Source of the DNA: Octopus vulgaris
Taxonomy: Eukaryota
Direction: 5' to 3'
Assembly (NCBI GenBank): GCA_951406725.2
Contig: OX597828.1
Span: 39,680,001-39,744,000 of the forward strand
Length of the DNA stretch: 64,000 bases
Position numbers and translations under genes: made by a program. The number at the start of each line of letters is the position of its first letter. Positions within the stretch are counted from its first letter, which is position 1. This document shows, piece after piece, positions 1-47,400 of the stretch. The notes under the pieces are model-generated. The model saw nothing but the letters and a program-made list of their open reading frames with translations, was not told the DNA's origin and did no database searches.

Positions 1-830
1 GGCGATGGAAGGACGAGCTCCCGATGCTGAAAAACAGAGTGAGCTGCTACCAGCATACTCTGAAAGGTCACGCCAGGGTGAGTTTGAAGACGAGGTGGAG
101 AGGTGGATCGAGGAAGTGGTCCTTGTCCTTTAGGAGGAGGAGGAGGTAGTGGGCGGAGTGCTACCCCTAATGGCGGTGGTGCAGCCGACGATGGGGAAAG
201 TCAGACCGGTGCTGGACTTCAGGGAGCTAAACGAGCATATATCGTGCCACACGGGAGGTGAGGCGTCGGACGTTTGTGGCGAGACGTTACGTGCGTGGAG
301 ACAGTCGACCAAGGCAGCGACGATTGTCGACTTGAAATCGGCATACTTGCAGCTCCATGTGAGCAACAAATTGTGGTGATATCAGCTGGTGCGGTACAAG
401 GGCCGGACGTACTGTTTAACCAGGCTGGGTTTCGGACTGAATTCTGCTCCGAAGAACATGGCACAGTACTTAAGTCCGTCCCAGGGAAAGAGGACAAGAT
501 TAGAAAGGCTACCAGTTCCTACATAGACGACATTTTGGTGGACGAAACAGTAGTGCCAGCCACGAGGTAGTGTGACATCTGGAGAAGTTCGGACTGATTG
601 CGAAGCCACCGGAGTCGATGGAAGGGGGAGTTGTTCTCGGTGTGTGGGAAGTTGGTCGGTCACTACCCGATCGCTGGATGGCTGCGCACGGCGTGCAGTT
701 ACATCAAGAGACGAGCGGAGGGGGAGAGTTGGGGCGACAAGGTGGGAGAAGGGACGGTGGCGATGATGCAGGAAATCCTAGAGAGGACGAGAGCGGAAGA
801 CCCGGTCAGGGGGAACTGGTATGTGCCCAA
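1..830 (+). mobile_element. Ty3/Gypsy-type LTR retrotransposon reverse transcriptase fragment, degraded
   Basis: Translations give VRPVLDFRELN, DLKSAYLQL, YCLTRLGFGLNSAP and SYIDDILV (YxDD), with stops and frameshifts. GC-rich relative to the window; truncated by a SINE at ~830. Confidence 0.85.
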
Positions 831-864
831 GACGGAACTCAGAACGTAATGGCAGACGAAATAC

Positions 865-19268: not shown

Positions 19269-19570
19269 ATAACATAAGGGACTAAAGCCATCTGAATATG
19301 GCTAGGGACAGGGCAGGGTGGTGGGGGTGTTACTGTTGCATTTAGCCCCAGGCGAACATCGACGTCACCAGAAAGGCCCGACACCGTCACGGTGTCCTTA
19401 ACCTGCAAAGGGAGGTGGAATTACCTCCCTTTGCAGGTTAAGGACACCGTGACGGTGTCGGGCCTTTCTGGTGACGTCGATGTTCGCCTGGGGCTAAATG
19501 CAACAGTAACACCCCCACCACCCTGCCCTGTCCCTAGCCATATTCAGATGGCTTTAGTCCCTTATGTTAT
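19269..19570. repeat. Perfect 148-bp-arm palindrome with 6-nt loop
   Basis: 19269-19416 is the reverse complement of 19423-19570; spacer ggaatt. Confidence 0.95.
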
Positions 19571-20247
19571 ATATATATATATATGCATATATTCATATTT
19601 TATGGAGCAGTATACCATTAGTTATGGTTAGTATGTTACTAATAGTTTTGCACTGACTACTGTGTTCAGCAATATTCATAACTCTTCAGATATTCCGGTT
19701 GGAAGTGCATAGTCCCTGTTGTACCTGGGTAGCTTGATGTTGGTAAAAAGAACTGGAATGAAATAAAAAAAAATTGTAGCATTTTCTGAGAGAGAAAGAA
19801 GAGTTGCCTCCCTTGGATCAATGTCAACCTCTGCTAAAGAATGCCAGCTGTGTTTGAACACGTCCGTTTTCGGTTCTGAAAATGTTGCCATTCATGAGAA
19901 CAGTATCCAAATATTTTACATTTTGATTCCAGGAAAGATTCTGGATTGTGTGAGATTTTTTAAAACGATTCTTTTCATCATCTACTTCCATTCACGTATG
20001 GTCCATGCCATTCCAGCATTGCTTCCACTTTATACAGCATTGCTTCCACTTTGAATTATCAGATACAGCTGGTTAACATTGTAACATTGTGCTTCTCTTG
20101 AATTCTAAAAGAGGAGCCGTGATTATTTACTCTGACTTTACAGAGGCCATCTGTTACTCCGACATATTTCTCTGTGTGTGTTCCCATTATTGGGAGAAAT
20201 CATCTTCGCTCTGTAGATCATAACCTCTGTTTTGTATTGATTTTTCA

Positions 20248-20309
<62 letters not shown>

Positions 20310-20454
20310 TGAAATTATTGTATACAGTGCTCAGGTGCACCACAACTTGTCAAAAGTGCATATAAAGCATGTGCATTGGAAGCACTCCGTCGGTCACGAC
20401 GATGAGGGTTCCGGTTGATCCGAATCAACGGCGCAGCCTACTCGTGAAATTATC

Positions 20455-20785
20455 TGCTTAAGAACCTCACCAATGGAGAGGTTCTTAAGCAGATAAGGCC
20501 GAGAATGTCGCTAGAAGCTAGGATCACCAAGCATAGATTGGCATATTTCGGTCATATTATGCGGAGGGAATCCCCGGAGAAGGACATCATGCTCGGAATG
20601 GCCAGTGGCAAGAGAGGAAGAGGTCGACCAAGAACCCGCTGGCTTGATACCATCAGGAGTGATACTGGAATGGACATGGCCATTCTGAAGGAAGCGGCCC
20701 AGGATAGAACTGACTGGAGGACACTGATCCAACGAGTGACTGAGAGTCGATTCCAACTAAGCGGATAGAGAGAGAGAGAGAGAGT
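20455..20785 (+). mobile_element. RTE-clade LINE 3' end
   Basis: ORF RLAYFGHIMRR...GKRGRGRPRTRWLD...AAQDRTDWR followed by a (GA)n tail. Confidence 0.85.
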
Positions 20786-20907
20786 AATACGAATGCCGAA
20801 AGGTTAAAATAAATTGATGCTTGCAGTTATTATGTTGCATCTTGTTTCTGTAATTTAAATTTTGGTTTTATCTAATTTCAGGTTATAGGAGATAGAATAT
20901 TTCCAAC

Positions 20908-21005
20908 ATGACCCTTGGTATTGTAGCTGCACTGACAGCTGCCAGCACAATTGCAGTAATTAACTTCATCTTTGTCATTGCTATTATTGTTTGGAGATGT
21001 AAACG
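20908..21005 (+). CDS. Single-pass membrane protein, first intact coding exon (TM helix)
   Basis: Acceptor atttcag ends at 20881; ATG at 20908; MTLGIVAALTAASTIAVINFIFVIAIIVWRCKR; donor CG|gtaaat, phase 2. Confidence 0.75.
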
Positions 21006-21017
21006 GTAAATATAATT

Positions 21018-21325
21018 TACTAGCAGTATCGCCCGGCGTTGCTCAGGTTTGTAAGGGAAATAACTATATAAGCATTTTTAGAGAGTTACTTCCCTTATAT
21101 AAACCGAGCAAAAAATGCATTAAAAAAACCAAAAAATTATGGTAAATTTTTTTCAAATTGTAGACTCATTGTAGATGCACGCTAATACCCAGAAGGGCTC
21201 GATATGAATCACGACTATAAGATACCCGCTTTTGGTTAAACTGCACCGCAAAATGTGGGAGTAGTTAGGAATCTAAATCGGAGGAGACAGACTCTCACAC
21301 AACTTCAGTTTTATATATAAAGATA
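21018..21325 (+). mobile_element. Non-autonomous Helentron/HINE-like element
   Basis: 5' actagcagtatcgcccggcgttgctc, 3' acaacttcagttttatatataaagat. Related 5' ends at ~42260 and 53029; related 3' ends at ~40880 and ~54630. Confidence 0.5.
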
Positions 21326-21794
21326 TCCCTTTGTCACTGTGCCAACTAGACTATCAGATGTGGTTATACACCGCTAGTCACCATGCACTTTCTCGCATTA
21401 TTATAGCTTTCTAATGATGTCACTCTGTGGCCAACATTCTCTCTGAAAGGAAGGTCAGTACATCTCAGGGTCACCTGTTTACAGCTTACGGGACTGGAGC
21501 TATGTGAAATGAAATGTTTGGCTTAAGAACACAATGCACTACATGTCTGAGAATTGAAACCATGATCTTGTGGTTGTGAATGCAACACCCTAGCCACTTA
21601 GCCACATGCTTTCACATAATTTGTATAATTAATTAAATTCTCTTATTGAAACATAGGTAAAATATTCAGTCATAATATTTTAAATTTTAGCACAAAGCTG
21701 CCATGGTGACATTTGTTCACAACTTTCATGCGATGTCAAGACAAAATGGTACAAACACAAACAGATGGCTTTAGTCCCATATTCTTTTTTTTTC

Positions 21795-22165
21795 CTTTTA
21801 TTCTTTTACTTGTTTCAGTCATTTGACTGTGGCCATACTGGAGCACTGCCTTTAGTCGAACTAATCGACCTCAAGATTTATTCCTTGTAAGCCTGGTACT
21901 TATTCTGTCGGTATCTTTTGCCAAATTGCTAAGTTACGGGTTGTCAAGTAATGAAGGGGGGAGAAACACAGACACACACACAGACACAGACACACACACA
22001 ATATGACAGGCTTCTTTCAGTTTCCATCTACCAAATCTAATCACAAGGCTTTGGTCAGCCCGTGGCTATAGCAGAAGACACTTGCCCAAGGTGCCATGCA
22101 GTGGGACTGAACCCGAAAACATGTGGTTGGGAAGTAAGCTTCTTACCATACAGCCACTCCTGTGC
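21795..22165 (-). mobile_element. SINE family B copy
   Basis: Reverse-complement match to 18785-19180. Confidence 0.85.
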
Positions 22166-22171
22166 CCATAC

Positions 22172-22733
22172 CTCTCTACATCTCTGTACATATGATAAGC
22201 TTCTTTCAGGTTCCATCAACCAGATCCACCTACAAAGCTTTGGTCAGCCTGGAGTTAAGGTCCAAGATGCCATGCAGTGGAACTAAACCTAAAACCACAT
22301 AGTTGGAAAGTGAACTTCATAAGCACACAGGTATGCCTGTGTCTATCTAAAAATAACCAAGGACCTTAGTAAAATAACTAACTTTATAGATTATAGGACT
22401 TTCAACTCTTTAGCATTTAAACCAACTAAATATGGCCAAAATATTCTATCTCTGGCCATATTTAGTTGGTTTAAATGCTAAAGAGTTGAAAGTCCTATAA
22501 TCTATAAAGTTTGTTATTTTACTAAGGTCCTTGGTTATTTTTAGATAGTCACAGGCAAAGCTGTGTGCTTATGAAGTTAACTTTCCAACCATGTGATTCT
22601 GAGTTAAGTTCTGCTGCAAGGTATCTTGGACAAGTATCTTCTACTATAACTCCAGGCTGACCAAAGCCTTGTTGGTGGATTTGCTTGGTGGAACCTGAAA
22701 GAAACCCATCATAAGTACAGAGATGTATAGATG
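22172..22733. repeat. Inverted repeat (~270-bp arms, 13-nt loop)
   Basis: 22172-22438 pairs with 22452-22733; inner ~115 bp nearly perfect, outer part diverged SINE B heads. Confidence 0.9.
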
Positions 22734-23560
22734 TGTGTGTGTGTGTCTGCGTTTGCACCACTTTCTCTTGACATCATACAAGCAGTGTCATTCATTTCCA
22801 GTCTTCTACAAAAACATGTTTGGTTGCAGGAAGATGTTGCCTTGCTTAGAAACAAGTGAGAGCTAGTGACAGGAAAGGCACCCAGCTGTAGTAAATTTGC
22901 CTCAACGAATTCTGTCTAACCCATGCAAGTAAGGAAAAGTGAATATTAGAACAGTGATGATGATAATGAAGATGATGATGATGGTGGTGGTGGTGGTGGC
23001 GGCGGCGACGACGACGACGATAGGCTGTATATTTTGCTGGAAGTATAATCATGAAAAGATTAAAGTTTCAACTTTATATGAATCTGTATGGAATGACAAC
23101 AATCCCAATTGTAGTTAAGGCGGCAGCGTAACATTATGTTCAATGCATTAATACTTTAGCCTACCCAACCACTATATTAATGATGATAATGATATTGGTG
23201 GTGCTGATGGAATTCTTTTTTTTAACCTTTTAAGTGTGGTTACTCCAGTATCTCACAAAAAAGAAAAATATAGAGAATTGGTATTTTCTGCAAGTCACAT
23301 TGACTTAATAAACTTGACATATCTAAACAGAGAATAATTTCAAACATGAGATTCCTCAACAAAAGAGAGACTGGTATATAAAATTGCTTTCTGTAGTTAA
23401 GGGTTATCAAATTCTGAGTGGATATATCTGATTTGTGCAGCAAAAGGGTTAATTTTTAGCCTAATCTTTTCTGGATTGTCACACATTTAATTTCAAGCTG
23501 GTTTTTTTTTACCTTCATCAATTTATTCTTATATTTATTTTTTCCTTTCATCAACAACAG

Positions 23561-23856
23561 ATGGAAAAAATCAAAGCCTGTTCCAGTAACATCACTGTCA
23601 TCCCAACCAACCATTCTCAAAAGGAAACCTATAAATATCAGCCGATTGGATCTGAATCCGCAAAACTTAGCTGGGCAGCAAAATCCTGTCTATACAGTGC
23701 CAACTGTAATACAAGCAGTTCCGAACAGAAATCCAATTTCATATGAGAGGCAATCAAGCAGGTCCCCTAACAGTGTTTGGCCACCTCCTGGTCAGTTTTT
23801 AACGATGAATGATTCAGTTATGTGGCGTCCAATTGAGAATGATACTGTTGTCCCTG
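23561..23856 (+). CDS. Membrane protein exon 2 (cytoplasmic tail)
   Basis: Long pyrimidine tract ending caacag; phase 2 in, phase 1 out (G|gtaagt); open frame WKKSKP...QNPVYTVP...WPPP...NDTVVP. Confidence 0.75.
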
Positions 23857-24302
23857 GTAAGTAAGATAATGTAATTTTGATTGATTGATTCAATCGTATT
23901 TCCTGTGACTAATCAGTCATCACATAGTTGAGCTAAAATAGTTTCTTTGGTTCCTTAGTTTGGTTTAACCATTATAACTAAAGCTGAACATTACCTTCAT
24001 CTGAAATGTTGATGGAGAGGAGAATATTTAGGGTGTATTTTTGTTGTGTGTAAGCTAGTTAGAAGGGGAGGGAGCAGGCAGTACTCATGGCCGTTGCAGG
24101 ACTTCCCGGCCTGATGAGATTGATGCATTTGATGTTTTACATCAGCATTTTGTAGGTCGATGTTTGCAAGAAGGGCATGTTTGATGAAGGAATTCTAAGT
24201 GATTGCCATCCTGGGGAAGGAAGTGAGAATTTGGCAAAGTGTTTGGTGAGGCATCTTAAAAGTTAGACACAATGATCGAAGGAGGATCATAAATAGTTGA
24301 GT

Positions 24303-25105
24303 TGGGTGAGTTTGCATGGCAAGGGTGTGTATATGGTAAGGGTGAGCTTGCATGGCAAGGGTGTGTGTGTGGTAAGGGTGAGCTTGCATGGCAAGGGTGT
24401 GTGTGTGGTAAGGGTGAGCTTGTGTGGCAAGGGTGTGTGTGTGGTAAGGGTGAGCTTGCATGGCAAGGGTGTGTGTGTGGTAAGGGTGAGCTTGTGTGGC
24501 AAGGGTGTGTGTGTGGTAAGGGTGAGCTTGTGTGGCAAGGGTGTGTGTGTGGTAAGGGTGAGCTTGTGTGGCAAGGGTGTGTGTGTGGTAAGGGTGAGCT
24601 TGCATGGCAAGGGTGTGTGTGTGGTAAGGGTGAGCTTGTGTGGCAAGGGTGTGTGTGTGGTAAGGGTGAGCTTGTGTGGCAAGGGTGTGTGTGTGGTAAG
24701 GGTGAGCTTGCATGGCAAGGGTGTGTGTGTGGTAAGGGTGAGCTTGCATGGCAAGGGTGTGTGTGTGGTAAGGGTGAGCTTGTGTGGCAAGGCTGTGTGT
24801 GTGGTAAGGGTGAGCTTGCATGGCAAGGGTGTGTGTGTGGTAAGGGTGAGCTTGCATGGCAAGGGTGTGTGTGTGGTAAGGGTGAGCTTGTGTGGCAAGG
24901 GTGTGTGTGTGGTAAGGGTGAGCTTGCATGGCAAGGGTGTGTGTGTGGTAAGGGTGAGCTTGTGTGGCAAAGGGTGAGCTTGCATGGCAAGGGTGTGTGT
25001 GTGGTAAGGGTGAGCTTGTGTGGCAAGGGTGTGTGTGTGGTAAGGGTGAGCTTGTGTGGCAAGGGTGTGTGTGTGGTAAGGGTGAGCTTGCATGGCAAGG
25101 GTGAG
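24303..25105. repeat. 36-bp minisatellite, ~23 units
   Basis: Unit gggtgtgtgtgtggtaagggtgagcttg(ca/tg)tggcaa; one truncated unit near 24970. Confidence 0.95.
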
Positions 25106-26005
25106 ATTGTGTGGCAATGGTATGCAGTTACCTAGTTTACAAGTGTGGTGGTGGGACCACAATTGCCACATGTGTGAAGCAGATTGCAGTATACAGTAAT
25201 ATAGACAGTCTCCATTGGTCAAAAGCTAATCTTGTATCTGGACATGTATACCCAAGTCTGGCAAGATTTTTTGGCAAAAACTTGTCAGTTGCCTTTGCAG
25301 GCCTTTCCTTTCCATGACATCAATGTTTATCCAAGGAAAAGGTTGCCGAAATAATGCATTCCTAACTGATGAACTTGAAATAAGTTGAGAAAGCTATGAA
25401 TAATAGCATGGACATTTTCTATACAAAATTCGTTTTGAATAAAATGGGTGGCCTCTAACTTTTCCTAACCAAAATTGTTTTTAACTAATTTTTTTACCTT
25501 TATATGCTTTGAGTTCTACAATTTTGAATTAATATATACATGTGTGTGTGTGGGGTGTATGTATGTACATACGCATGTGTGTATGTATGTGTGTGTGTGT
25601 GTATATATATATATAACTTATAAACAAGGGCAAAAGAAAAAAAATTTCTCATGCCAAATATGCTGAAAACAGACACATCGTCAATAACCATATATTTCAT
25701 CACTATAAGCACGTGTTTCGAAGAAAGCTGACAGAAATTACTAAAAAATTCCGTTATTATCATATCGGACCCGATTTCAGAGTTAATTCATAAGAACCTT
25801 CTCTTCGTCAGTGATAAATGCGGCAAAGGAATAAATGAAATGCTTACTTATACCCATGGAAGAAGCAAACACTAAGTCATGAGCAGACCTAAGTACCCCA
25901 AATATATCCAAAATAGAAATTCTCCAGCACACCTCGAGACACGTGCGATCAGACTGAAAACTCTCATAGAGTGAGAGAGTCCAAAAGTGAACACTATTAA
26001 ATTTA

Positions 26006-26175
26006 CATCTGATATAGGATAAAATTTTCAAAAAAAAATTCTATCAATGGCCAGCATATTAAAAAATATCTTTAACGGTTAAATTTATAAACAACAATTT
26101 AACCTTTAAAGGTATTTTTTAATATGCTGGCCATTGATAGAATATTTTTCAAAAAATTTTATCCTATATTAGATA
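26006..26175. repeat. ~80-bp-arm inverted repeat
   Basis: ttctatcaatggccagcatattaaaaaata...ggttaaatt pairs with aatttaacc...tattttttaatatgctggccattgatagaa. Confidence 0.85.
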
Positions 26176-26292
26176 CACACACACACACACACACACACAT
26201 ACACACATTCTAAAAGTGAGGTTAACAACCTGGATAATTATAATTTGCTGTTTCTTTGTATTATGTTTATTTTTTATTTTTTTATTTTCCAG

Positions 26293-26308
26293 CCAGACAA
26301 CAAATTCA
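26293..26308 (+). CDS. Membrane protein 16-nt microexon
   Basis: Long T tract + ttccag|CCAGACAACAAATTCA|gtaagt. Confidence 0.6.
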
Positions 26309-26574
26309 GTAAGTAATATCTTATATATTTGTTTGTCATTTATTCTATAGCTTTTTTTGTATTTCCTTTTTTGTCTGCAACTGTTGTTAGAAGGTGTGTA
26401 GTGTGTGGTGGAATTTATTATCTAATTTTTTTTTTTTCATTTTTGTTAATAAATTAGACAATGGAGTACAACTGTGTATTGATGGCCTTTACTGTTCCTT
26501 ACAGACTAGATGGATATGGCCTGGGCACCTGCGGATAAATGTTTGCAGGATAGATGCAAGTAAAGAGGGATCTA

Positions 26575-27345
26575 CTACTACTAATAATAATAATGAAATT
26601 ATTGTATACAGTGCTCAGGTACACTACAACTTGTCAATAGTGCCTGTGAAGCGTATGCAGTAATGTACAAATGTCTGGAAAGTGAACAGTATATGAGTTA
26701 GATACATGCTTGCGTGTGTATGGAGGGAAGAAAATCAGGTGTAGTGTTGGTGATTCTCAGGAAGCATGGAAGTTTTGAAGGATGCAGTGCTCCAACAACT
26801 AACAACCGATGCTAGCAGTTTATTCCATACTTCAGCAACTCTTAGCATGAAAAAATGTTTCTGAAAGTCATGGGAGCTGTGCTGTTTTCTGACTTTGTAA
26901 ATATGTCCACGGGTGTTAGATGGGTGGAGTTTGAAAAGGTGCTCAGAGTTATTGTTAGTAAGATGGTTAATAATTTTATGGGTGTCTGCCAAGTCAGTTG
27001 TCAGATGCTGGAGTTTCAATGTATCCATGCTCAAGGACATAAGGCGTTCAGAATATGGCAAATGCCTGGAGGTTATTCTCTTGGTTGCACATCGCTGAAT
27101 GGTTTCCAGATGATTAATATCCCGGGCAAAATAGGGGTTCCAGACCGGTGATGCAAATTCCAGGTGAGGCTGCATATAGCTATATAAAGCCTCAGATAGA
27201 TAGCCGGAGAGCGGCTCGCAAAGGACTTGGTGAGTGATGCCAAGACACCCTCAGCCTTCTTGGCATTTTTAGCAATGTGTTTTGTCCAACGCAAATCACT
27301 GTTGACAATAATGACCAGGTCATGTTCACAAGAAGTCCTTTTGAG
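26575..27345 (-). mobile_element. CR1/L2-clade LINE 3' fragment
   Basis: PHLEFASPVWNPY...LPYSERL...NTRGH...KHFF.LRV...WNKL with an (ATT)n tail. The same 3' end recurs at ~20250-20375. Confidence 0.8.
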
Positions 27346-27435
27346 ATTAGTCAGGTTTTACTCACACAGTGTCAACATGAAGACATGTTGCAACACTCAC
27401 ATACACATACACACTCAGGTCTCTATGTGAGTGTG

Positions 27436-27466
<31 letters not shown>

Positions 27467-27987
27467 CTCATAATCATCATAATTTAACTTCCGTTGTCCA
27501 TGCTTGCATGGGTTGGATGGTTTAACTGGGCTGGCATGCTGGAAGGCTGCACCAGACTCCAGTCTGATCTGGCGGTGTTTCTACAGCTGGATGCCCTTCC
27601 TAATGCCAACCACTCTGAGAGTGTAATGGGTGCTTTTACATGCCACCAGCACAGATGCCAATTTGCGTGACACTATTGCCAAAATTTGAAATCAATATTA
27701 TACATCTTGAAAGTGTGGAGCTGGCAAAATTGCTAGTGTGTTGGGTAAGTGGTTTTTGTCCAACTTTATGTTCTGAGTTCATATTCTGCCAAAGTCAACT
27801 TTGCCTTTCATCCTTTTCAGGATCAATAAATAAGTACCAGCTGAGTACTGGGGTTGATGTGATTGACTTATCCCCTCCTTTGGCGTTGCTGGCCTTGTGC
27901 CAAAATTTGAAATTAATGTTACATATCTTGACTTTCATTAAAATAATTACTAAACAGTTTTTTCTTTTTTCTTTTTAATTCTTTCAG

Positions 27988-27994
27988 CAATTCG
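27988..27994 (+). CDS. Membrane protein 7-nt microexon
   Basis: Long T tract + ctttcag|CAATTCG|gtgagt; restores frame together with the 16-nt exon. Confidence 0.6.
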
Positions 27995-29630
27995 GTGAGT
28001 ACAATTTTATATTTTTCTCAAAATTCATAACTTTAAAAAATATGTTACTATATATAAATAGATTAAAAAAAAAACAAAAAAAAAACATTGAATAATTCTT
28101 GATTGGAGATAGCACTTGCTATCTCCAACAAGGCAGCCTCTACTTGAGTGCTTGCATGCTAGAAATAGCAGCTACATTTCCCCCAAACCACTTTCTATGA
28201 TTCTAATATAGGAAAGGACGCATTTAATAATGCAGTAATTTTGATATAGTTCTAAAAAGATGAGGTGGTCACTGATGGAATGTCTTTTATTGTAAATCTA
28301 TTTCATCAAGTTTAATATAGGGCTGAACAAAAACAACAAAAAGAGCAACAGTGACTAAACACTAAAAAGTGAGCCAATGAAGATGTTTCTTTACAATTGC
28401 TCAACTTGCTAGAAATAGCAGCCATATCGTCATAGAGTCTTATCTTAGTATCTTAGTAACTCGTGATTATTATACATAAATGAGTCACAGCTATTTGGTC
28501 AACAGACAAAAATAACAATGATGTACAAATAATACATGATGTTTATCACGGACATGTTAGTTCTACCTCAAAACCCAGTCTTTCTACAACAAACAATGAA
28601 AGAGAACAAAAGAGAGTTCGCTACACATCACAACAGATTATGTATAGACCACATTTGTGAACAACTTACACAATGGGAGCAGGAGTGGCTGTGTGGTGAA
28701 ATGTCTCCTTCCAAAACACATGGTTCCAGATTCAGCATTATGTGACACCTTGGGCAAGTGTCTTCTTGTATAGCTTTGGGCTGACCAAAGCCTTGTGAGT
28801 AGATTTGGCTGATGGAAACTGAAAGAAGCCCATCATATATGTATATATATATATATATATATATAGGGAGAATTCAGAAAAAAAAACAAAAGACGAAGAC
28901 AAGTGGTGTAGACAACAAACAGATGTATCAGTATAACGCTCAGGAAGTGAGAAAGTTTTTAATGTTTTGAGCCTACGCTCTTCTACAGGAAGAAACAAGG
29001 AGAGAAAATAAAGAAAGTGTGATGTCTAGCGATCTATCATGGTGATGTGTGTGTATGAGTGTGTGTGTGTGTGTGTGTGTGTGTATCTTTTTGTTTGTGT
29101 TTGTCCTCCACCACAGCTTAACAACCGGTGTTGGTGTGTTTATGTCCCTGTAATTTAGTGGTTCAGCAAAGGACCAATTGAATAAGTACCAAGCTGAGTA
29201 AAATATAAGTAGTGGGATCAATTCATTTGATTAAAATACTTTAAGGTAGTGTCCCAACATGGCCACAGTCTAATTACTGAATTGATTAAAAACAAAAATA
29301 CTGCAATTGAAAGTCACCTGGATATGAAAGAAGTACAGTTTGTTATTGAGCAAACTTCAACTCCCAAAGTCCACCTCCAAACAAAAGAAACATTTACAAA
29401 ACCCCAGAGAGCTGCTACAACAGTGTTAGGGACAAAATTCGTTTACAGGAGTCCCAACTTTGCAGATAGAATCATGGGAGGTTTTTTGAGACATTCTTTT
29501 GGAAAATAAAAAATGCATATTATCTGATTTTTAAGTGACTAAATTATTTGTATGACTTTCTTATTTAATTTTGTTTACTCAGATTGTTGATTTTAACATA
29601 ATTTATTTCATGTCTTTTTTATTTTTTCAG

Positions 29631-29723
29631 AATGAGAGACCTGAATACTTGAAGAGACAGAGAGATCCAGGCTTTGGATCAGTAGAAATCTTACCTGATT
29701 ATGATAATGATGTATGTTATTGA
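29631..29723 (+). CDS. Membrane protein last identified exon
   Basis: After ttttttcag only phase 0 stays open: NERPEYLKRQRDPGFGSVEILPDYDNDVCY*. Possible donor GAT|gtatgt at 29711/29712. Confidence 0.65.
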   Translation, partial: NERPEYLKRQRDPGFGSVEILPDYDNDVCY

Positions 29724-29830
29724 TATATGAATTGGTGTTAGATTTTAAGGAATAGCAGAGAGGAACAAGATGGGGTGGAGTGGAGAGAAAGAAATGTTTA
29801 AGGAGTTCACATGAATAATGTGAGAAAAAG

Positions 29831-29886
<56 letters not shown>

Positions 29887-29921
29887 ATGTATGTATGTAT
29901 GTATGTATGTATTGTTTTCTC

Positions 29922-29964
<43 letters not shown>

Positions 29965-31437
29965 GCATGTATATATATGTGTGTATGCATTGTGCATGTG
30001 TGTGTGTATATGATATAAAACATTACGGAGTACTCATCTAGAAGAGTGGAAAAGGAACATGAAAATGGTGTGAGTCAAATTTTTAGCTTCCTTATAATGA
30101 TATCATCTTCTTCCTCCTCATCATCACTATGTTAAGGTCCACTTCTCCATGCCCACATATGTTGGATGGAATTCACTGAGGCAGGCTCTCTATAGTTGGA
30201 TGCTCTTTCTGTCACCAACCCCCACCTGTTTCCAAGTAAAATAATATTGCCCCATGGCCAGGCATGTTTTCATGGATGACTGGAAACAAAGAACACCGTT
30301 TGCATGACAGTGACACTTATTCACAAATATCACACAGTATCAAGACAACACACACGCACACACATGCACATGCGCACTCATGCATGTGCACCCATGCACA
30401 CACACATGCATGTGCACTCATGCACACAGACATATGCATTCATGCACATACACATGCATGTACAAATGCACTCACATATGCATGCACACACATGCATGCA
30501 CACACTCATACATACATATGCACACTCATGCACTCACACACATACACACGTGCACTCACACACATGCATGCATGCACACACACACACACATGCCAGGATT
30601 CTTTCAATTTCAGTCTATTGAACCCATTTACAAGGCTTTGGTTGATCCGAGGCTGTTGTAGAAGACACTTGCCCCATGTGCCATTCTGTGGGACTGAACC
30701 TGAAAGCATGAGGTCTGGAAAGCAAACCCTTTTAACTGCACAGCCATGCATGTGTGTGAGTGTGTGTGTGCATGTGTGTGAGTGTGTGTGTGCATATCAT
30801 CATCATCATCATTTAATATCTGTTTTCCATGCTGGCATGGGCGGAATGGCTTGACAAGAACTGGCCAACCAGGGAACTGCCCAGACACCAAGTGTCTGTT
30901 CTGACAAGGTCTTTATACCTGGATGCCCTTCCTAATGCCAGCCACATTACAGAGTGTGCTGGGTGCTTTTTACATTCCACTGGCACGAGTACATTCATGC
31001 GCCACCGGCACAAATGCAATTTACATGACACTGGCACCTGTAAAGGATAAACCTGTATGTATGGATGACAGCAATGTTACTTAGCAGCTTGATGTATCTT
31101 CTCAAGTACAGCAAATCACAACAACTCTCAGTCCCTTGTCATTTCCTCAGTGTCTGAAGATCCTTTCTCACCACTTTGTCCCACATCTTCCTGGGTCCCT
31201 CCACAATTAGATGCAGCTGTCCTCATCCATATGCATCACATGACCAAACCAGCACAGTCTTCTCTCTTGCACACAACACCTCATGCCTCTTATACCCAAT
31301 TTTTCTCTGAAGTCATATACAGTGGCTGGACTTCATTCATATGTTCTTAAAATTTAAATCTACATCTTTGTATATCTACCTCCTCTATAATGTTGCCACT
31401 TGATTTGAAAACTTTTGTATTAATGGAAAACCTATAT

Positions 31438-31528
31438 AATTGGCTGATGAGCACTCAGCATCTTAAATCTGTTGTAATACTTACAACATTTAATAAAATG
31501 ATGTAGTGTGAAACAATTGTACCAAATT
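31438..31528 (+). ncRNA. Type I hammerhead ribozyme-like motif
   Basis: aattgg CTGATGA gcact...agtgt GAAA c-aatt-g TA ccaaatt: full core, stems I/II and palindromic minimal stem III. Confidence 0.6.
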
Positions 31529-31654
31529 ACCGGAGTAATTCTTGTTGCTTATTTTGATTATAATCACCCCACAAATTTTTATGGATAACACCATACAAAA
31601 TTCTGGTGCATCTAAATTAAGTACCATATTCATTCGAATCTAAATTTTTGCTGA

Positions 31655-31686
<32 letters not shown>

Positions 31687-32937
31687 CTTAGGCATAGCAA
31701 TACTAATAACCTGGTGTTAGAACTAAATATCTCTATGCTTCAGAGAGAAGCATTAGTTGAGTATAGAGCATAATAATAGATTAGAATGGTCGAAATTGTG
31801 TCATGTGCTTCATAAGCTCACAGCAGTTTCTGTTATAAGTTGCAATGCACTCATATTTGAGTGTTTGTGCATCACCTTATAGCTTCATCAGAGCTTTAAA
31901 AATGAAGTAGCAGAAAGAACCGCAACCTACCGAATTTTCTGACATGGTTTCTTGTTCTCTTGTCATCTATTTATCCATCTATCTGTTTGTCTGTCTGTCA
32001 TTATCATCATCATCATAATCGTTGTCATCATCATCTTCGTTTAACGTCCACCTTCCATGCTGGCATGGGATGGACGGTTTGACAGGTGCTGGCCAGGCAG
32101 GAACCTGCACCAGACTTCTGTGTCTCTCTGTCTATATATATGTGCACTCAACATTTTGTATCTTTAAATGACCTGACATCTCATTACCACCATCTCTACC
32201 TCCATTCCAGCTATTTCCACCAACTGTTGTATAAAATAGGGTAGCCATGTATCTCCTCTATAGACAGATAGCACTTTAGTTTCTCAACACCTAGCATAAA
32301 ACCACCCATCCCCTCTCAGTAACTCACCCCGAGGTGACATTTTCCTATTGCCTGTTCTTTTCTCATCCTGTAAGTTACATAGTGAAGTCACTACTGCTGG
32401 TGGCATGAAGAGAGCACCCCGTACACACTGTAGAATGGTTGACATTAGGAAGGGCATCCAGCTGTAGAAACCATACCAATGCAGACACTAGATCTTGATG
32501 CAGTCATCTGACTCATATCCTGACAAACTGTCCAACCCATGCCAGCATAGAAAACAAACATTTAACGACAACAACGACGACGATGATGATGATGATGATT
32601 ATACATAAGTGTATGTGTGTGTGTCTGTGTGTGTGTGTGGACTTGATCTGAGATTTTTGTGTACTGAACTTGAAACAATAACACTGACCAACTACAGACA
32701 CGTGTGTGTTATTATATATTCATTTACATACTTTATGATGGCATTATACATTATATGTGCACACTGAACATGCTGGTCAGTGAAGTGAAACTGAGTCAGT
32801 GATTAGGCTGTAGATGTACTTTTGATACTTTTTGACTTCTTGTAATATATAATATGATCCTGAAATTAATACAAATGCATGTACAGTGTATGTGTGTGTT
32901 TGTGAGAGTGTGTGTGTATATACAAAAAAGTATGTGT

Positions 32938-38809: not shown

Positions 38810-39580
38810 CTTTCTTCATACCAAGCTTTGGAAAATGGGTGCCTCATGAATTGTCTAAAAGCAACTGCAAATCCCGAGTTGATATCTGCTCTTCTCTCCA
38901 TTCTCGTGAACTCCTTTCACCCTTTTTGGATAGACTTGTGACGAAAAATGGATCTTCTATCGAAATGTTAAACGTCATAAACAGTGGCTTGGTAAAAGGG
39001 AAAAAGCTCAACCACAACTGAGAAGGGAACTTCATGGAAAAAAGGTTCTCTCAATCTGGTGGAATTGCAAAGGAGTAATTCACTTTGATTGTTACCACCT
39101 AATGCAACAATCAATGCTCAAGTCAGCAATTAGAGTGTTTGAACCAAGCTTTGAAGAAAAAAAAAGAACCGCTTTAGTGAATCGAAAAGGAGTGATGTTT
39201 CATTAGGGCAATGTGCGACTCCATACTGCAAAGATCACATCACAAAAGATTGAAGAGCTTGGTTGGGAAAAAATTCCTCATCCACCTTATTCTCCCGACT
39301 TTGCTCCTTCAAACTACCATTTGTTTCGTAGTTTACAGAATCATTTGGGGGACATAACTTTTGCAAGCCAGGAGGAGGTTGAAACTGGCATTTCAGAGTT
39401 CTTTGCTTTGAAACCAAAAGAGTTTTACATTGATGGGATTAAAAAACTTGTAAATAGATGGAAGCAAGTCATAGATAATCAGGGAAAGTAAATTGATGAT
39501 TAGATTTCAATTAAATATAACATTTGATCATTTGTTTTCTTTATTCGAAATTCGGACAGAACTTATGGGACAACCTGATA
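38810..39580 (+). mobile_element. Degraded mariner transposase, 3' two-thirds
   Basis: WVPHELS, HPPYSPDFAPSNYHLFRSLQNHL, GIKKLVNRWKQVIDNQG; frameshifts; terminal cagaacttatgggacaacctgata. Confidence 0.85.
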
Positions 39581-41451: not shown

Positions 41452-44400
41452 CTAGAAAGAGAATTACCAGGAAATAAAGTCAGTGAGCATTAAGATATTT
41501 CAATTGTTGATCAACGATAAAGTGTGACAATCAATATCGTACAACTAATGATATTTCTTTAAAATTTCAGATTCAGTCAAAATATGAAATCTTCTAATAT
41601 TTATAACAGTTACAAAAACTCATTTATAAGAGAATTCTTACCTTGTTCAATCAAAATTTAGATTTCAAATGGTCAAAGTCATCACAATACACTTAAGATT
41701 CACTTCACTTTGGAAGATGCATTAATACTTCAAATGTCGATTTCCCATGTCCCCAGGTGGGTTACAAATTCATTTCTAACTATACTAGTGGGGCTGAGGG
41801 TACAGTAATAAATTATGCATTCAGCCAGCCAACATGCAATCCAGTTTCAATTCCCAGTTGTATTGTCTACACTTACCTCATTAATTGCATTGGAAAGAAA
41901 TCTTATGACTCTGCTGAAAGGAATGAAGATCACATCTTTCCTAAGATTATCTGAGGTGTCCATAATTCCCAAAGGAATAATGTGTTACATTTTATTTTGT
42001 TTGTGATTTTGCATTTAGTTAAAAGTAATAAATGTTTCATGAAAGACATTCTATTAAATAGGAGATTATTAACAACAATAACATTCTTCTACATGTTCAT
42101 CTCAGCTGAAGTTTGAAATAAAAGTAAACTTAAAATGCAGATAACCCAGCATTTAAGATGTAGACACTGGGCAAATATTTCACTCGCTGGAACAGTTTTA
42201 TGAGTAATGTAATGATTGACATTTTGTGAACAATAAATCATTGTTTGAAATTACATTATACTAGCAATGCACCCTGGCGTTGCCCGGGGGGGTTATTACC
42301 TACAGCCACATTGTATTATTTCTTCCTTTCTTATGGAAAGAACCAGCTTATGAGGAGTATGAAGCAAACAACTCTTCTTTATAAGCATGTTTTTCAGTCA
42401 TTTTCTGATGAACAATGCTGCAGTTTCAATCTACCAAATTCAGTCACAAGTCTGTGGTTGGCCTAGGGTTATAGTAGAAAACACTTGCTCAAAGTACCAT
42501 GCAGAGGGATTGAACATAGAACCATGTGGCTGGGAAGCAAACTTTTTAACCGCAGCCATTATTGCACTCAATATGTGTGTGTATTTACTTTTGTTGTTAA
42601 ATCGAGTATTGTGCCCCATTATGTCTCAAAGTTAGCAGTTCATCAAGCAGAGATCTATAAAATAAATAACAGATTGAAATACGTACAGAGCTCAGTATGG
42701 TCAATTACATTTTTGAAGGTGATACCCTATCATGGCGATAGTCAAAAGACTAAACCCAGTATAATAATGTTTAAAGACTTAATGGTTTCAAATTTAAGGT
42801 AATGGATTACTAACCACAAGATAACGAGTTCAAATTTCATATTGAACTTCCAATAACAGTATATGTACATCTCAGTCTACTTGACTTCCAGCAATTAACA
42901 ATTGTCTTTTGAAGCTGAATGGTTAGCAGTAAGAAAGATGTCCAGATTTCTTACAAAATTATTGTGCAAAATATTCTGAGAAAAAGTATTTTTTTCACTA
43001 CAACAAAACACACACACACACACACACAGGTGTGTCTGTAGTAACGTGTGCTACTACAGAAAGCAACCAAATCTCTCTTAAAACACAGCCTTTCTTCAAA
43101 AGAAAGACACAGATCTACAGTATTTCAGGAAGGAAAAAAAAGATATTCGATGGGTCTGCTATATCAGAGGTAACGCTGGGCTAAACAAAACACAAAAATA
43201 CTTCACATTAGATTATCTACTAAGTAATACTAATGAAGTTGACGGTATAACTTCAAAGTTTCATTCCCTGGTAAAATATTTTAAACATTTTCTCATTATG
43301 CTTGATGTAAGACATAAAGATAAGGGAGGCAGAGTTGCAAAAATCTTACTTTATTTGATTGATGAAAGATTATTGAATCATTTGATACCTCATATGCCAA
43401 AATCAGCAACTAGGTTTTCGAATCCATAAGGAACATATGTCCATGCACACACACACACACACACAAACTCTGTTTTATATATTAAGATTTCATATTCATA
43501 TTATCTTACCTCAGTTTTCGGAGATTTCACAAATTTATATTTTCTGATTATGGTAGCGATAGCAAGCTTAAATTCCAATCTTGCCATTTTTATGCCTATA
43601 CACATTCTTGGTCCAATGCCGAATGGTAAGAAGGTACAAGGATTCAATTTGCTTTTTGCTTCAGGTGCAAATCTGAATAATAGAGTACCGTTATAAGAAA
43701 ATACCAAATGATTCATAAATCATGACAGTTTTTTGATACATTAAAAGTAATATAAAACACATACAATTTTGGAACGAGAATTTACCTTGTAAGGTGCATA
43801 ATATATCGTTATTCATCTATGTGTATTTTGTATTGTAGCAAAGAACTATACCAGGTAGCTATGAGGGAGGTTAGAAGACAGGTATGCTTGGCCAGGGGAG
43901 AAGCAGAAAGGAGAAAGGCCTGTGATGTGAAGACCAGAAGCTTGAAGTATTTTGGATTGCAAAACATTGTCACAGAAGATCGTGCTGTGGTAGCAGAGCA
44001 ATGTGTTCTCATAGATGATGGCTCACTTGCAGTTAGTGATTTTGCAAAGAAGGAGGCTTGGAAGTGCCACTATGAAAGGTTGCTAAATGTAGAAAATGCA
44101 TGGGAGAAGGAGAGCCTGCTTAATGTGAACAGAACAGAGGAGCCAGCTATCTGGTTGACAGAAGCTTAGTAGATAAGGCAATTAAGGATATGGAGACAGG
44201 AAAAGCCTTCAGCCCATCAGGAATCACTGCTGAGATGCTTAAAATATCTGGCAGAGTGAGATATGACTTGGTCACCAGTATAGTTAATCAGGTTGTCCAA
44301 GTGGGAGTCATGCCCAATGATCAGAGAAGCAATATTATAGTCAACTGCTACAAAAACAAGGGTGATGTCCTAGACAGAAATAATTACAGAGGCATCAAAT

Positions 44401-47400
44401 TTCTGGCCCAGGTGATGAAAGTTGCAGAAAGGGATCAGTTCTTAACGTCCTCTGGTTTATCATGGTCCTCCAAGCTATAACCGAGGAATTTAAGACTAGC
44501 TTCTAATGTATGGGTGCATGAGGTTATCAGATGTGTGTATGTATGTGCAAAGGTATGGGTGAGTATACGCTTTATGTGAGTAGCATGTGTGTGTGCATGT
44601 GTTGCTTTTAGGTGTGTGTGTGTGTGTGTTAAAGGCATAAATGTATGTTTGTGCATAAAGTGTGTGTTCATGCATTATGTGTGTTTATGTGTGAATATTG
44701 TTTACGTTTGCGTGTGTCCCTTTTATCAGTTACTGTGTGTATATGGACCATTTTTAATCTCCCTGGCCACATAGTTGGCATGACTTTTGTTGTATGTGTG
44801 GGGTTGTAAATTTCACTATGTTCAATTATAATGAGTGTTGGGGATTTTGATTTTTAAGTTGCCAGATGTATTCAGCCAGTGAAGTAGTGGGCCAATTTAG
44901 GCTTTGTGTATGAGGGGATGTGTGTATAAATGTGCTTCTTAAAGTTGTTGGCTGTGGCATCAACATATTCTCTTGTAGTTGAACTGGTAATCACTTGACA
45001 TCTGTAAATGATGCTTCTAGCAAAGCAGTTTCTTTTCAAAGGGTACTCAAATGTATTTTTATAATAACAAGTTTTAGATGTAGAGGCTCCTCAGGTTGGA
45101 TATATCAGTGTCTGATATTTGTTCAGAGCAATTGTAGAAGTATGTGGGAGATATGAAACAGTGTTTGTAGTTAGAGCAGCCAGTTGGGTTTCATTGAAGG
45201 TCATTCTGCATGGATAGAAGAGGAATTGGGAATGTATGATGCTGGAATCAGGATCAGTAAAATTAAGAAGTTGACCATCAAATATCAGAGGATGTACAAC
45301 ATTTGTATTTTTTAGTGTAAAGTTATTATTCCCAGTCATGTTATCTGCAGGGTTGGGGTTGTAGAGTACAATAGCCTAACTATATGGTTATTAGATACTT
45401 GGTAAATGTGTGTGTATGTGCATACATGTTATGCATCCACATGCACACATGTGAGTTTATGTGTGTGTGTGTGTGTGCACGCATGCATGTAGAATGCTTT
45501 TATATAGATTTTTTTTTTTTAAATCACTATTTTATATGGCTATTCAAATATATTTTAACCTTTACCAAGATAAGTTCATTGATTATTATTCAGTTTATAT
45601 TTAAATATATCAATATTGGATTTCTTTGTTTTCTTATATCGAAATTTTAATAATTTGACCTACCTTTCTGGAATAAACTTATGTGGTTCTGGCCAGTATT
45701 CAGGGTCATGTTGAAGGCTATAAATAGATATGTCTATAGGAATGTCTTTCGGAATTATCCAGTCCTTTATCTTAACAGTTTCCTTGGCATACCTCTGAAG
45801 CCTGTATAAATGAACAATAGGGAAAATTCTTAATTAATTGCAATATTTAATACCTAAGAATAATTCCATAAAATATACAGATATATATTAAAGCGTCTAG
45901 CTGACACAATCATTAACAAAACAGGGAAAATGTTTTGTGTTGGGCAAAATGCTACATTCTGAGTTCAAATTCCTCCAGTCCAACTTTGCTTTTCACCCTC
46001 CCCGGATTCATTAAATAAATACTAGCTGAGCCCTGAGGGCCAATGTAATTGATTTACTGATCTCTGAAATTGCTGGTCTTGTACCAAAATTTGAAATCAA
46101 TGTACAGATATATTTACACATCAAAGGCAATAAAATATATTCCCATATTTTAGCAAACTCTTGAAAGTAAATGAAGCTAAAATTATTGACTCAGTACTTA
46201 AACAGAGTTTTGATCACTGTATATTTGAAGGTGATGGTCTGATATGGACACATCACAGCTGAATCACAGACACAATTCAGATATAATAAGAACACTGGAG
46301 AAACGCTTCTAGATTCTCACTTCATGTTTGTCTGAGACTGCCTCAATAATGTACAGACCATAATTGCAATAGAACACAATTATAAGCACATCATTACTTC
46401 ACTTTCGTTTGATAATGTAGCTTTCTCTTTGAGACAGGAATATGAACTTATACATTTTATGCACAGGATGTTCTGTTATTATGACAAAGACTGACTATTA
46501 CATTTATGTTAGTAGTAGGCATCTGTCGGTCTTGAGAGACCAGGGATCTATGCCTGAAGAAATCATGTCAGCTGCTGATGGTGATGCAGCGTGTGTTGTA
46601 GCTGTATAGGCCCACATGGGAGTGGCAATCATGCATACAACGATTGCATTTAAAGAAGCTTTCTACAGGTGCTACTGGTTTTTCCTTTCATCAAGTGCAC
46701 TTTTCTTTGGTTGCAAGTTCCTGTATCTCTTCCTCTTGCTTCACACACTTTTGCAATATTTGTCTCCAGCAAGGCGATCATTTTCAGTCTCCTCCCATCA
46801 CAGAATGTCCAGAACCATCAACTTCATATCTTTCTTGCAGACGTACTTGAAACAAAGATGAGGTTGTGCTCTTGTGCCAATGTCCAATTCTCCATACAGG
46901 ATGTCCTTTGGGGCTCCCCCTGTCTGGCATGCGATGTACATTTACATTATACAACAACAACAAAGTAGATTTTGTGCATGTAAACATATGATGTCATAAT
47001 TTGTTGTAATGAAAGGTTATAAAATTTGGTACTAATATATATTTCTTATGGAACATATTTTTAAAAACCAATCAGCGGAAGTATTGATATAAATAGGGAG
47101 TTACAGAACAGGAGATATGCCATTGCTATTATTATATATTTGGTAATATTATGTATTCCTTATGGAACATATTTTTCACACCAAGTGTAGAATATTGATA
47201 TGAACATTGGTACTATCATACATTTCTTATGCTACTATTATGTTATTTGGTACTGTTATGTGTTTCTTATCAAACACATTTTTGGTACTATTGTATATTT
47301 CTTGTGGAACACACTTTTCAAAACAATAAGGGAAGAATATTGATACAAATAAGAAGTTACAGAATGGGAGATATACCATTAAATATTGCAGCTTTCCTTT

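What the first reader, a model, noticed from the sequence alone, without database searches (positions are those of the whole stretch)
26293..27994. Paired 16-nt and 7-nt microexons that keep frame only together
Seen: exon 2 ends in phase 1 and exon 5 stays open only in phase 0. 16+7=23 nt bridges them exactly (ARQQIHNS). Both have long T tracts and consensus donors (gtaagt, gtgagt). Skipping either or both, or using the tandem AG 4 nt into the 16-nt exon, gives a stop within a few codons and removes PEYL and YDN. Inference: a splicing switch controlling the distal Tyr motifs; most regulated microexons are multiples of 3, so this is unusual.
Basis: partly seen in the sequence, partly recalled or inferred. 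Interest (0 to 1): 0.7.

Follow-up and report, generated by a model that had tools for sequence, protein, structure and literature searches.

The report
Two real microexons, likely no switch
Two tiny exons of 16 and 7 bases are spliced together into the messenger RNA of a small octopus membrane-protein gene, but they are likely fixed parts of the gene rather than an on/off switch, and database gene models of close relatives already contain them.

Summary
Both microexons are real. In 4 of 4 runs laid on the last exon (4 studies), spliced contigs join exon 2, the 16-nt exon, the 7-nt exon and 'exon 5', with exactly 23 nt between; no skipping contig appeared (contigs hide rare forms). The gene encodes a 169-aa single-pass membrane protein with a predicted disordered five-tyrosine tail, found only in Octopus; O. 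sinensis and older O. bimaculoides models already include both exons. The 'switch' is not shown: 23 nt is not a multiple of three, so this is no frame-compensating pair; 'exon 5' is the last exon, so skipping would truncate the protein rather than likely trigger decay; the acceptors lack the near-AG UGC layout of neural microexons; YDN is YDD in O. bimaculoides. For a switch: current NCBI O. bimaculoides models (143 and 135 aa) match the skip forms, but that record set lacks the full form, which suggests microexon mis-mapping. Best reading: constitutive asymmetric microexons in an orphan adaptor-like gene (0.70); regulated tail truncation 0.22.

The parts
20882..21005 (+).
   Evidence: junction 21005/23561 (GT..AG) in 4 of 4 runs; hydropathy; helix 3-35 in model
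23561..23856 (+). Exon 2 (296 nt), residues 33-132, proline/serine-rich tail with NPVY (Y77) and Y94; ends in phase 1
26249..26292 (+). T-rich acceptor of microexon A: T 0.80 over the last 25 nt, AG-free zone 70 nt, nearest TGC at -47 (5' of the tract)
26293..26308 (+). Microexon A, 16 nt, phase 1 to 2, donor gtaagt; tandem acceptor at 26297 not used in any contig seen
27958..27987 (+). T-rich acceptor of microexon B: pyrimidines 0.92 over 25 nt, AG-free zone 28 nt, nearest TGC at -90
27988..27994 (+). Microexon B, 7 nt, phase 2 to 0, donor gtgagt; contigs have C at 27991 (synonymous Asn138)
29631..29858 (+).
26007..26174 (.). Intronic inverted repeat (79-nt arms, 91% complementary) ending about 120 nt before microexon A; role unknown

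Best explanation
The 16-nt and 7-nt segments are real exons that are spliced in together in the main transcript of a single-copy octopus gene, and they are likely constitutive rather than regulated. Shown: the junction order exon 2, A, B, last exon in spliced contigs; the 169-aa product; the same two exons in O. sinensis and older O. bimaculoides protein models. Inferred: strong T-rich acceptors right against the AG and consensus intronic donors drive default inclusion; because both exons are too short for simultaneous 5' and 3' site assembly, flanking introns are likely removed one after the other so that each microexon is first fused to a neighbour; skip forms, if made, are likely minor by-products, and the NCBI skip models are likely mis-mappings of the 7-nt exon. 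The protein is predicted to be a signal-anchored, tail-in membrane adaptor (no signal peptide, one helix, basic stop-transfer cluster with Cys31, disordered tail with five tyrosines) that would dock SH2/PTB-type partners; the microexons supply 8 linker residues and, above all, the reading frame of the last exon.
For:: 4 of 4 runs (studies P2, P5, P3, P6; labels A, C, B, C) have one contig each, all with both exons; runs were found with an exon-2 query, so not chosen for inclusion. X7 has the same 251 letters after exon 2 as X2 (indirect fifth run). P0002 (O. sinensis) differs from the window product at 1 of 169 residues and P0001 at 16 of 169; last-exon part 28 of 30 identical in the frame that needs both exons; the 4 sequence differences seen in exon 2, B and the last exon are all synonymous third positions in that frame. 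T tracts reach the AG, no TGC within 40 nt. Literature passages: constitutive microexons rely on strong splice signals (10.1101/2020.02.12.945683; PMC8831610); about 60% of rice micro-exons are constitutive and only 40.7% are 3n (PMC6600660); steric limit and ordered intron removal (PMC10250204); STAR/HISAT2 miss 1-15-nt exons without annotation (PMC8831610). Protein.
Against: NCBI O. bimaculoides isoforms X1 (143 aa, 3 accessions) and X2 (135 aa) equal the skip-B and skip-both products; a 23-nt skip is harder to explain as a short-read artefact than a 7-nt one. Contigs drop rare variants and tissues are hidden, so PSI was not measured; only 6 of 24 listed runs were laid and the letters were seen in 4. 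The exonic part of donor A is weak (6 of 9 U1 matches). UGC is not strictly needed for SRRM4 control. A CA tract before A and a TG tract after B could pair and loop both out, though about 10% of places in the window have such an arrangement (118 of 1142). Adaptor function rests on architecture only: no homologue outside Octopus.
Confidence: 0.7

Rival explanations
1. A regulated truncation switch: in some cells one or both microexons are skipped; because the new stop falls in the last exon the message would likely escape decay and give 132-144-aa membrane proteins without Y145, Y163 and Y169 that keep Y77 and Y94, a shortened or dominant-negative adaptor.
For: NCBI O. bimaculoides X1 and X2 match two skip forms exactly; stops lie 2-19 nt after the last junction; nonvertebrate bilaterians have a neural microexon program (PMC8797185 abstract passage); adjacent alternative exons are mostly mutually inclusive in human brain (PMC9287170 passages); CA/TG tracts flank the pair.
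Against: Only inclusion in 4 of 4 runs; no near-AG UGC and no displaced tract; the by-product tails differ between species (E* vs ERKT*, MRDLNT* vs KKDLNI*); the NCBI set with the skip forms lists no 169-aa O. bimaculoides form, as expected if the 7-nt exon could not be mapped; YDN not conserved.
Confidence: 0.22
2. Species difference: inclusion is fixed in the window's species and O. sinensis but O. bimaculoides has shifted to mainly skipping the 7-nt exon, so its tail is being lost.
For: Only truncated forms carry NCBI sources for O. bimaculoides.
Against: The older O. bimaculoides model P0001 includes both exons and keeps 28 of 30 last-exon residues; no O. bimaculoides RNA was identified among the runs laid.
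Confidence: 0.06
3. The two segments are chance matches and the transcript bridges exon 2 to the last exon through other sequence.
For: One base of the 7-nt piece differs between window and contigs.
Against: The 16-nt piece matches exactly once; the only AG-7nt-GT site with a good tract that fits with 1 mismatch is 27988; no exact copy of the RNA version lies in 20000-32000, and the acceptor-exon-donor pattern with either base occurs once in the genome.
Confidence: 0.02

Closest known systems
Octopus sinensis LOC115220624 (XP_029646630.1, XP_036365729.1) and O. bimaculoides LOC106870792 (XP_014772478.1, A0A0L8HHQ4; XP_052829278-81.1)
   Same: Same gene: 169 aa, 168 of 169 and 153 of 169 residues identical to the window product; the 169-aa models include both microexons.
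   Different: All are 'uncharacterized'; no paper held names these ids (0 hits for 6 ids). The O. bimaculoides records with NCBI sources are only the truncated 143- and 135-aa forms.
Constitutive (high-PSI) microexons of mouse, human and plants (10.1101/2020.02.12.945683; PMC6600660; PMC8831610; passages seen)
   Same: Very short, strong splice signals, not bound to multiples of three, often missed by annotation.
   Different: Here two in a row, in a gene with no relatives outside Octopus; PSI not measured.
eMIC / SRRM3-4-dependent neural microexons (10.1101/2024.09.17.613571; 10.1101/2021.02.24.432780; PMC10250204; passages seen)
   Same: Length under 27 nt; long AG-free zone before microexon A.
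   Different: No UGC between tract and AG, U-rich rather than UCUC tract, tract adjacent to the AG, both exons frame-shifting.
Transmembrane adaptor proteins LAT, NTAL, LAX, PAG, LIME, SCIMP (PMC3342071 passages; ESM Atlas feature neighbours)
   Same: Few residues outside, one helix, non-enzymatic tail with several tyrosines, juxtamembrane cysteine.
   Different: No sequence homology; single Cys rather than CxxC; phosphorylation and partners untested; Atlas scores 0.87-0.92 fail the tool's own family checks and fall to 0.78 or less without the helix.

Membership tests
Internal microexon (real exon) | Flanked by AG/GT and present in spliced transcripts | tested here: met
   4 of 4 runs
Constitutive microexon | Strong splice signals (tract next to AG, consensus donor) | tested here: met
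   pyrimidines 0.84 and 0.92 over 25 nt, equal to or above the gene's other acceptors (0.68, 0.72, 0.84); intronic donors gtaagt/gtgagt; no MaxEnt score computed; exonic donor part weak
Constitutive microexon | PSI above 0.9 in all tissues | tested here: inconclusive
   major form in 4 of 4 runs but contigs drop rare forms and tissues are hidden; NCBI skip models exist
eMIC/SRRM4-dependent neural microexon | Length of 27 nt or less | tested here: met
   16 and 7 nt
eMIC/SRRM4-dependent neural microexon | UGC close to the 3' splice site, between tract and AG | tested here: not met
   nearest TGC at -47 (5' of the tract) and -90; motif is common but not obligatory
eMIC/SRRM4-dependent neural microexon | Weak 3' site with tract displaced from AG, UCUC-rich | tested here: not met
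   U-rich tracts (T 0.80) run up to the AG
eMIC/SRRM4-dependent neural microexon | Neural-specific, eMIC-dependent inclusion | not testable with these tools
   no tissue labels, no raw reads
Frame-compensating, mutually inclusive exon pair | Summed length a multiple of 3 so that both-in and both-out are in frame | tested here: not met
   23 nt; skipping both stops 2 nt into the last exon
Splicing switch coupled to nonsense-mediated decay | Premature stop well upstream of the last exon junction (50-nt rule, recalled) | tested here: not met
   all stops fall in the terminal exon, 71-88 nt before the normal stop
Transmembrane adaptor proteins (TRAPs) | Short outer segment and a single membrane helix | tested here: met
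   hydropathy peak 2.46 at residues 10-28, at most 0.36 beyond 35; one helix 3-35 in a low-confidence model; prediction only
Transmembrane adaptor proteins (TRAPs) | Non-enzymatic tail with several tyrosine motifs | tested here: met
   no Pfam family at cut-off, no PDB hit, 117 of 169 residues pLDDT under 50, Y77/94/145/163/169 all kept in P0001
Transmembrane adaptor proteins (TRAPs) | Juxtamembrane CxxC palmitoylation motif (present in LAT, NTAL, PAG; absent in LAX) | tested here: not met
   single Cys31
Transmembrane adaptor proteins (TRAPs) | Tyrosine phosphorylation and SH2-partner binding | not testable with these tools
   YxN (Grb2-type) at Y163 in window and O. sinensis but YDD in O. 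bimaculoides
Transmembrane adaptor proteins (TRAPs) | Sequence homology to a named TRAP | tested here: not met
   only Octopus hits; TRAPs themselves share little sequence, so this lowers 'is a member', not 'works like'

The most novel reading that the evidence does not exclude
An Octopus-only membrane adaptor whose three distal tyrosines are switched off by skipping frame-shifting 16- and 7-nt microexons in front of the last exon: a decay-proof, tissue-regulated truncation switch giving full-length and tail-less receptors-side scaffolds, outside the UGC/eMIC code.
Probability: 0.2. Interest if true: 0.5.

Novelty: new member of a known kind. Interest (0 to 1): 0.24.

Why it matters
As most likely read, it is ordinary: two fixed tiny exons in an uncharacterized octopus gene. 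It has modest value as (a) a transcript-backed 7-nt exon in a mollusc, (b) a likely case where a newer database annotation lost a microexon and now lists only truncated proteins, and (c) a candidate invertebrate adaptor-like membrane protein. If regulated skipping were real, it would show frame-shifting microexons used as a protein-truncation switch placed where decay cannot act, and one RT-PCR would test it.

Tried and rejected
Other exons between exon 2 and the last exon: none needed, the insert is exactly 23 nt. Further coding exon after the gtatgt at 29712: rejected, 4 of 4 contigs read through. N-terminal extracellular domain: rejected, stops in all three frames between 20882 and the ATG, and all 4 contigs enter at 20882. 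Second copy of the 7-nt exon carrying C: none. A-to-I editing as cause of the T/C difference: rejected, the change on the spliced strand is T to C (own knowledge of ADAR chemistry); allele or assembly difference not resolved. Paralogues: 3 matches in the own genome, all exons of this locus, 16 of 16 candidates scored. Homologues outside Octopus: none (0 of 26 candidates; 1 of 1; 1 of 19; 1 hit, P0001); these searches are weak for a disordered, fast-evolving protein and squid or cuttlefish proteomes may be thin in them. Pfam: 4 weak hits on the membrane helix only, all under cut-off. PDB: 0. ESM Atlas: feature neighbours (poxvirus A36R family 0.92, opalin, SCIMP, LIME1) reflect the helix-plus-tail layout; structure rows all TM under 0.4. 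No fold search was run because the model is low-confidence (pLDDT 50.6, pTM 0.20). Papers: 'microexon'+'octopus' (3 listed), 'micro-exon'+'cephalopod' (2 listed), six gene ids: nothing on this gene; PubMed 30833759 not held. CA/TG loop-out: about 10% background, kept only as a lead.

Full report
What the locus is. The window lies in a 2.80-Gb genome. The gene's product differs from an Octopus sinensis protein at 1 of 169 residues and from an O. bimaculoides protein at 16 of 169, so the host is an Octopus species very close to O. sinensis (inference). The coding exons are 20882-21005 (ATG at 20908, stops in all three frames before it), 23561-23856, 26293-26308, 27988-27994 and 29631 onward with the stop at 29721-29723. 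The gene is single-copy: 3 matches in the own genome, all exons of this locus.

Check of the observation. A strong T-rich acceptor followed 3-27 nt later by GTRAGT occurs twice on the + strand of the window, both times these exons, and never on the - strand; 0.16 and 0.10 were expected, and a resampling control gave P = 0.011 for 2 or more of 11 acceptors. The thresholds were set after seeing the exons, so the figure is generous; the transcript evidence is what decides.

Transcript evidence. Runs were found with a query over exon 2 only (24 listed, 14 holders guessed to be RNA, none on record as RNA), so they were not picked for carrying the microexons. I laid 6 of the 24. In one search, 4 of 4 runs (X1, X2, X7, X11) have one contig joining 21005 to 23561 across a GT..AG intron, which shows spliced material. 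In one search, 4 of 4 runs (X2, X11, X6, X13; four studies; organism labels A, C, B, C) have exactly one contig on the last exon, and in all four the letters before it are the end of exon 2, the whole 16-nt exon from the upstream AG, and the 7-nt exon. Record coordinates give 23 nt between exon 2 and 29631 in X2 and X11. X7 has the same 251 letters after exon 2 as X2, an indirect fifth case; X1's contig ends 47 letters after exon 2 and its letters were not seen. Limits: these are assembled contigs, which drop rare variants; tissues are hidden; the joined form in DNA runs was not given (table 5b). All four contigs have C where the window has T at 27991; the change is synonymous in the both-included frame, no second copy of the exon exists, and I could not tell allele from assembly error.

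Protein evidence. P0002 (O. sinensis, two NCBI accessions) and P0001 (O. bimaculoides, UniRef/EukProt, named after XP_014772478.1) both contain the eight residues made by the two exons. Against P0001 the window product keeps 31 of 33, 88 of 98, 6 of 8 and 28 of 30 residues in the four segments. Of 6 base differences seen between contigs and window, the 4 in exon 2, the 7-nt exon and the last exon are synonymous third positions; the 2 in the membrane exon change residues.

The result against my reading. The same cluster holds two O. bimaculoides proteins with NCBI sources: isoform X1 (143 aa, three accessions) and X2 (135 aa). They leave P0001 after 137 and 131 residues and their tails fit the last exon read in the two other frames, that is skipping of the 7-nt exon and of both exons. 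They could record real skipping. But the 4-member cluster lists no 169-aa O. bimaculoides protein with an NCBI source, and X1 is the longer of the two NCBI forms, which is what one expects if the pipeline could not place a 7-nt exon; common aligners do poorly on 1-15-nt exons without annotation (PMC8831610, passages). How NCBI built these models was not checked; the artefact reading is an inference, weaker for the 23-nt skip.

Why the frame argument does not show a switch. 16+7 = 23 is not a multiple of three: both-out is as frame-shifted as one-out. This is not a compensating pair; any consecutive constitutive exons with uneven lengths 'keep frame only together'. About 80% of human microexons are multiples of three (PMC8831610 and 10.64898/2026.09.14.751627, passages), but in rice about 60% of micro-exons are constitutive and 40.7% are 3n (PMC6600660, passages), and mouse constitutive microexons are marked by the strongest splice signals (10.1101/2020.02.12.945683, passages). 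Neural eMIC/SRRM4 targets have weak 3' sites with the tract set back from the AG, a UGC near the AG and UCUC-rich tracts (10.1101/2024.09.17.613571 and 10.1101/2021.02.24.432780, passages). Here the tracts are U-rich (T 0.80 over 25 nt) and reach the AG; the nearest TGC is at -47 and -90; AG-free zones are 70 and 28 nt against 46-61 for the gene's other exons. UGC is present in only 74-79% of SRRM-dependent microexons and is not strictly required, so this lowers but does not exclude regulation. Because the stops fall 2-19 nt into the last exon, skip messages would probably escape junction-based decay (50-nt rule, recalled) and give 132-144-aa proteins; their short new tails differ between species, and the YDN motif is YDD in O. 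bimaculoides.

How it most likely works. Shown: joint inclusion as the main form in every run where letters were seen. Inferred: default inclusion through strong acceptors and consensus intronic donors; ordered removal of the flanking introns because U1 and U2 cannot assemble at once on so short an exon (hypothesis discussed for SRRM4 microexons in PMC10250204, passages); the upstream AG of the tandem acceptor wins as the first AG after the tract. The protein has one hydrophobic stretch (peak 2.46 at residues 10-28), a basic cluster with Cys31 right after it, and a Pro/Ser/Asn-rich tail; AlphaFold2 on a 4-sequence alignment gives a single helix 3-35 and 117 of 169 residues under pLDDT 50 (a shallow alignment also lowers pLDDT). 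It has five tyrosines, all kept in O. bimaculoides, one in an NPxY word (PTB/endocytosis-type motif, recalled). This is the layout of transmembrane adaptor proteins (PMC3342071, passages), and language-model neighbours include SCIMP, LIME1, opalin and the poxvirus A36R family, but scores do not pass the tool's family checks and drop without the helix. It works-like a TRAP by prediction; it is not shown to be a member of any family.

Novelty. The exons are already in public protein models of two relatives. Searches for six gene ids, 'microexon'+'octopus' and 'micro-exon'+'cephalopod' found no paper on the gene; most subscription papers are not in the library. Of 10.64898/2026.09.05.749416 I saw only microexon passages, of PMC9287170 and PMC8797185 passages; other papers only as listings. 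The scan has no note near this place but 13 notes on microexons elsewhere in this genome, 8 shown (unchecked), so tiny exons are not rare here. Verdict: real exons, ordinary most likely; interest 0.24; regulated truncation switch about 0.2.

Noticed in passing
window 1604 and 1858 (+): Two donor-like sites (one after CAG, one after AAG) in a repeat-poor stretch; contigs X1/X7 match back to CAG and X2/X11 only to AG at the 20882 acceptor, and NCBI lists three transcripts for one protein. Possibly alternative 5' UTR donors about 19 kb upstream; other candidates exist.
   Followed up: partly
window 27991: All 4 contigs, under three organism labels, have C where the window has T; allele or assembly difference unresolved.
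   Followed up: partly
window 20947 and 20957: Residue-changing differences in the membrane helix (T14A in X2; V17A in X2 and X11, also in P0001/P0002).
   Followed up: partly
window 24304-25121: 36-bp minisatellite, about 22 copies, 92-95% matches, G-rich on the + strand, in the intron before microexon A.
   Followed up: no
window 26007-26174; similar palindromes by eye near 19270-19570 and 22340-22550: Long intronic inverted repeats that could form hairpins in pre-mRNA; the first ends about 120 nt before microexon A (the other two read, not run).
   Followed up: partly
window 26170-26207 and 29045-29085: CA and TG tracts flanking both microexons could pair; about 10% background in this window.
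   Followed up: yes
window 26735-27380 (-), 38934-39491 (+), 43756-44480 (+), 1-850 (+), 20448-20768 (+): Broken mobile-element remnants by look of their translations (LINE-type, mariner-type, retroelement pol-type; labels recalled); of the three of these put to Pfam only 39207-39488 gave a weak DDE_3 hit.
   Followed up: partly
window 29727: Contigs of organism label C (X11, X13) leave the window sequence just after the stop codon, a likely species indel in the 3' UTR.
   Followed up: no
window 45091-45375 (-) and 29231-29509 (+): Open frames of 92-94 aa with ordinary-looking composition and no Pfam hit; no contig covered 29290-29509.
   Followed up: partly
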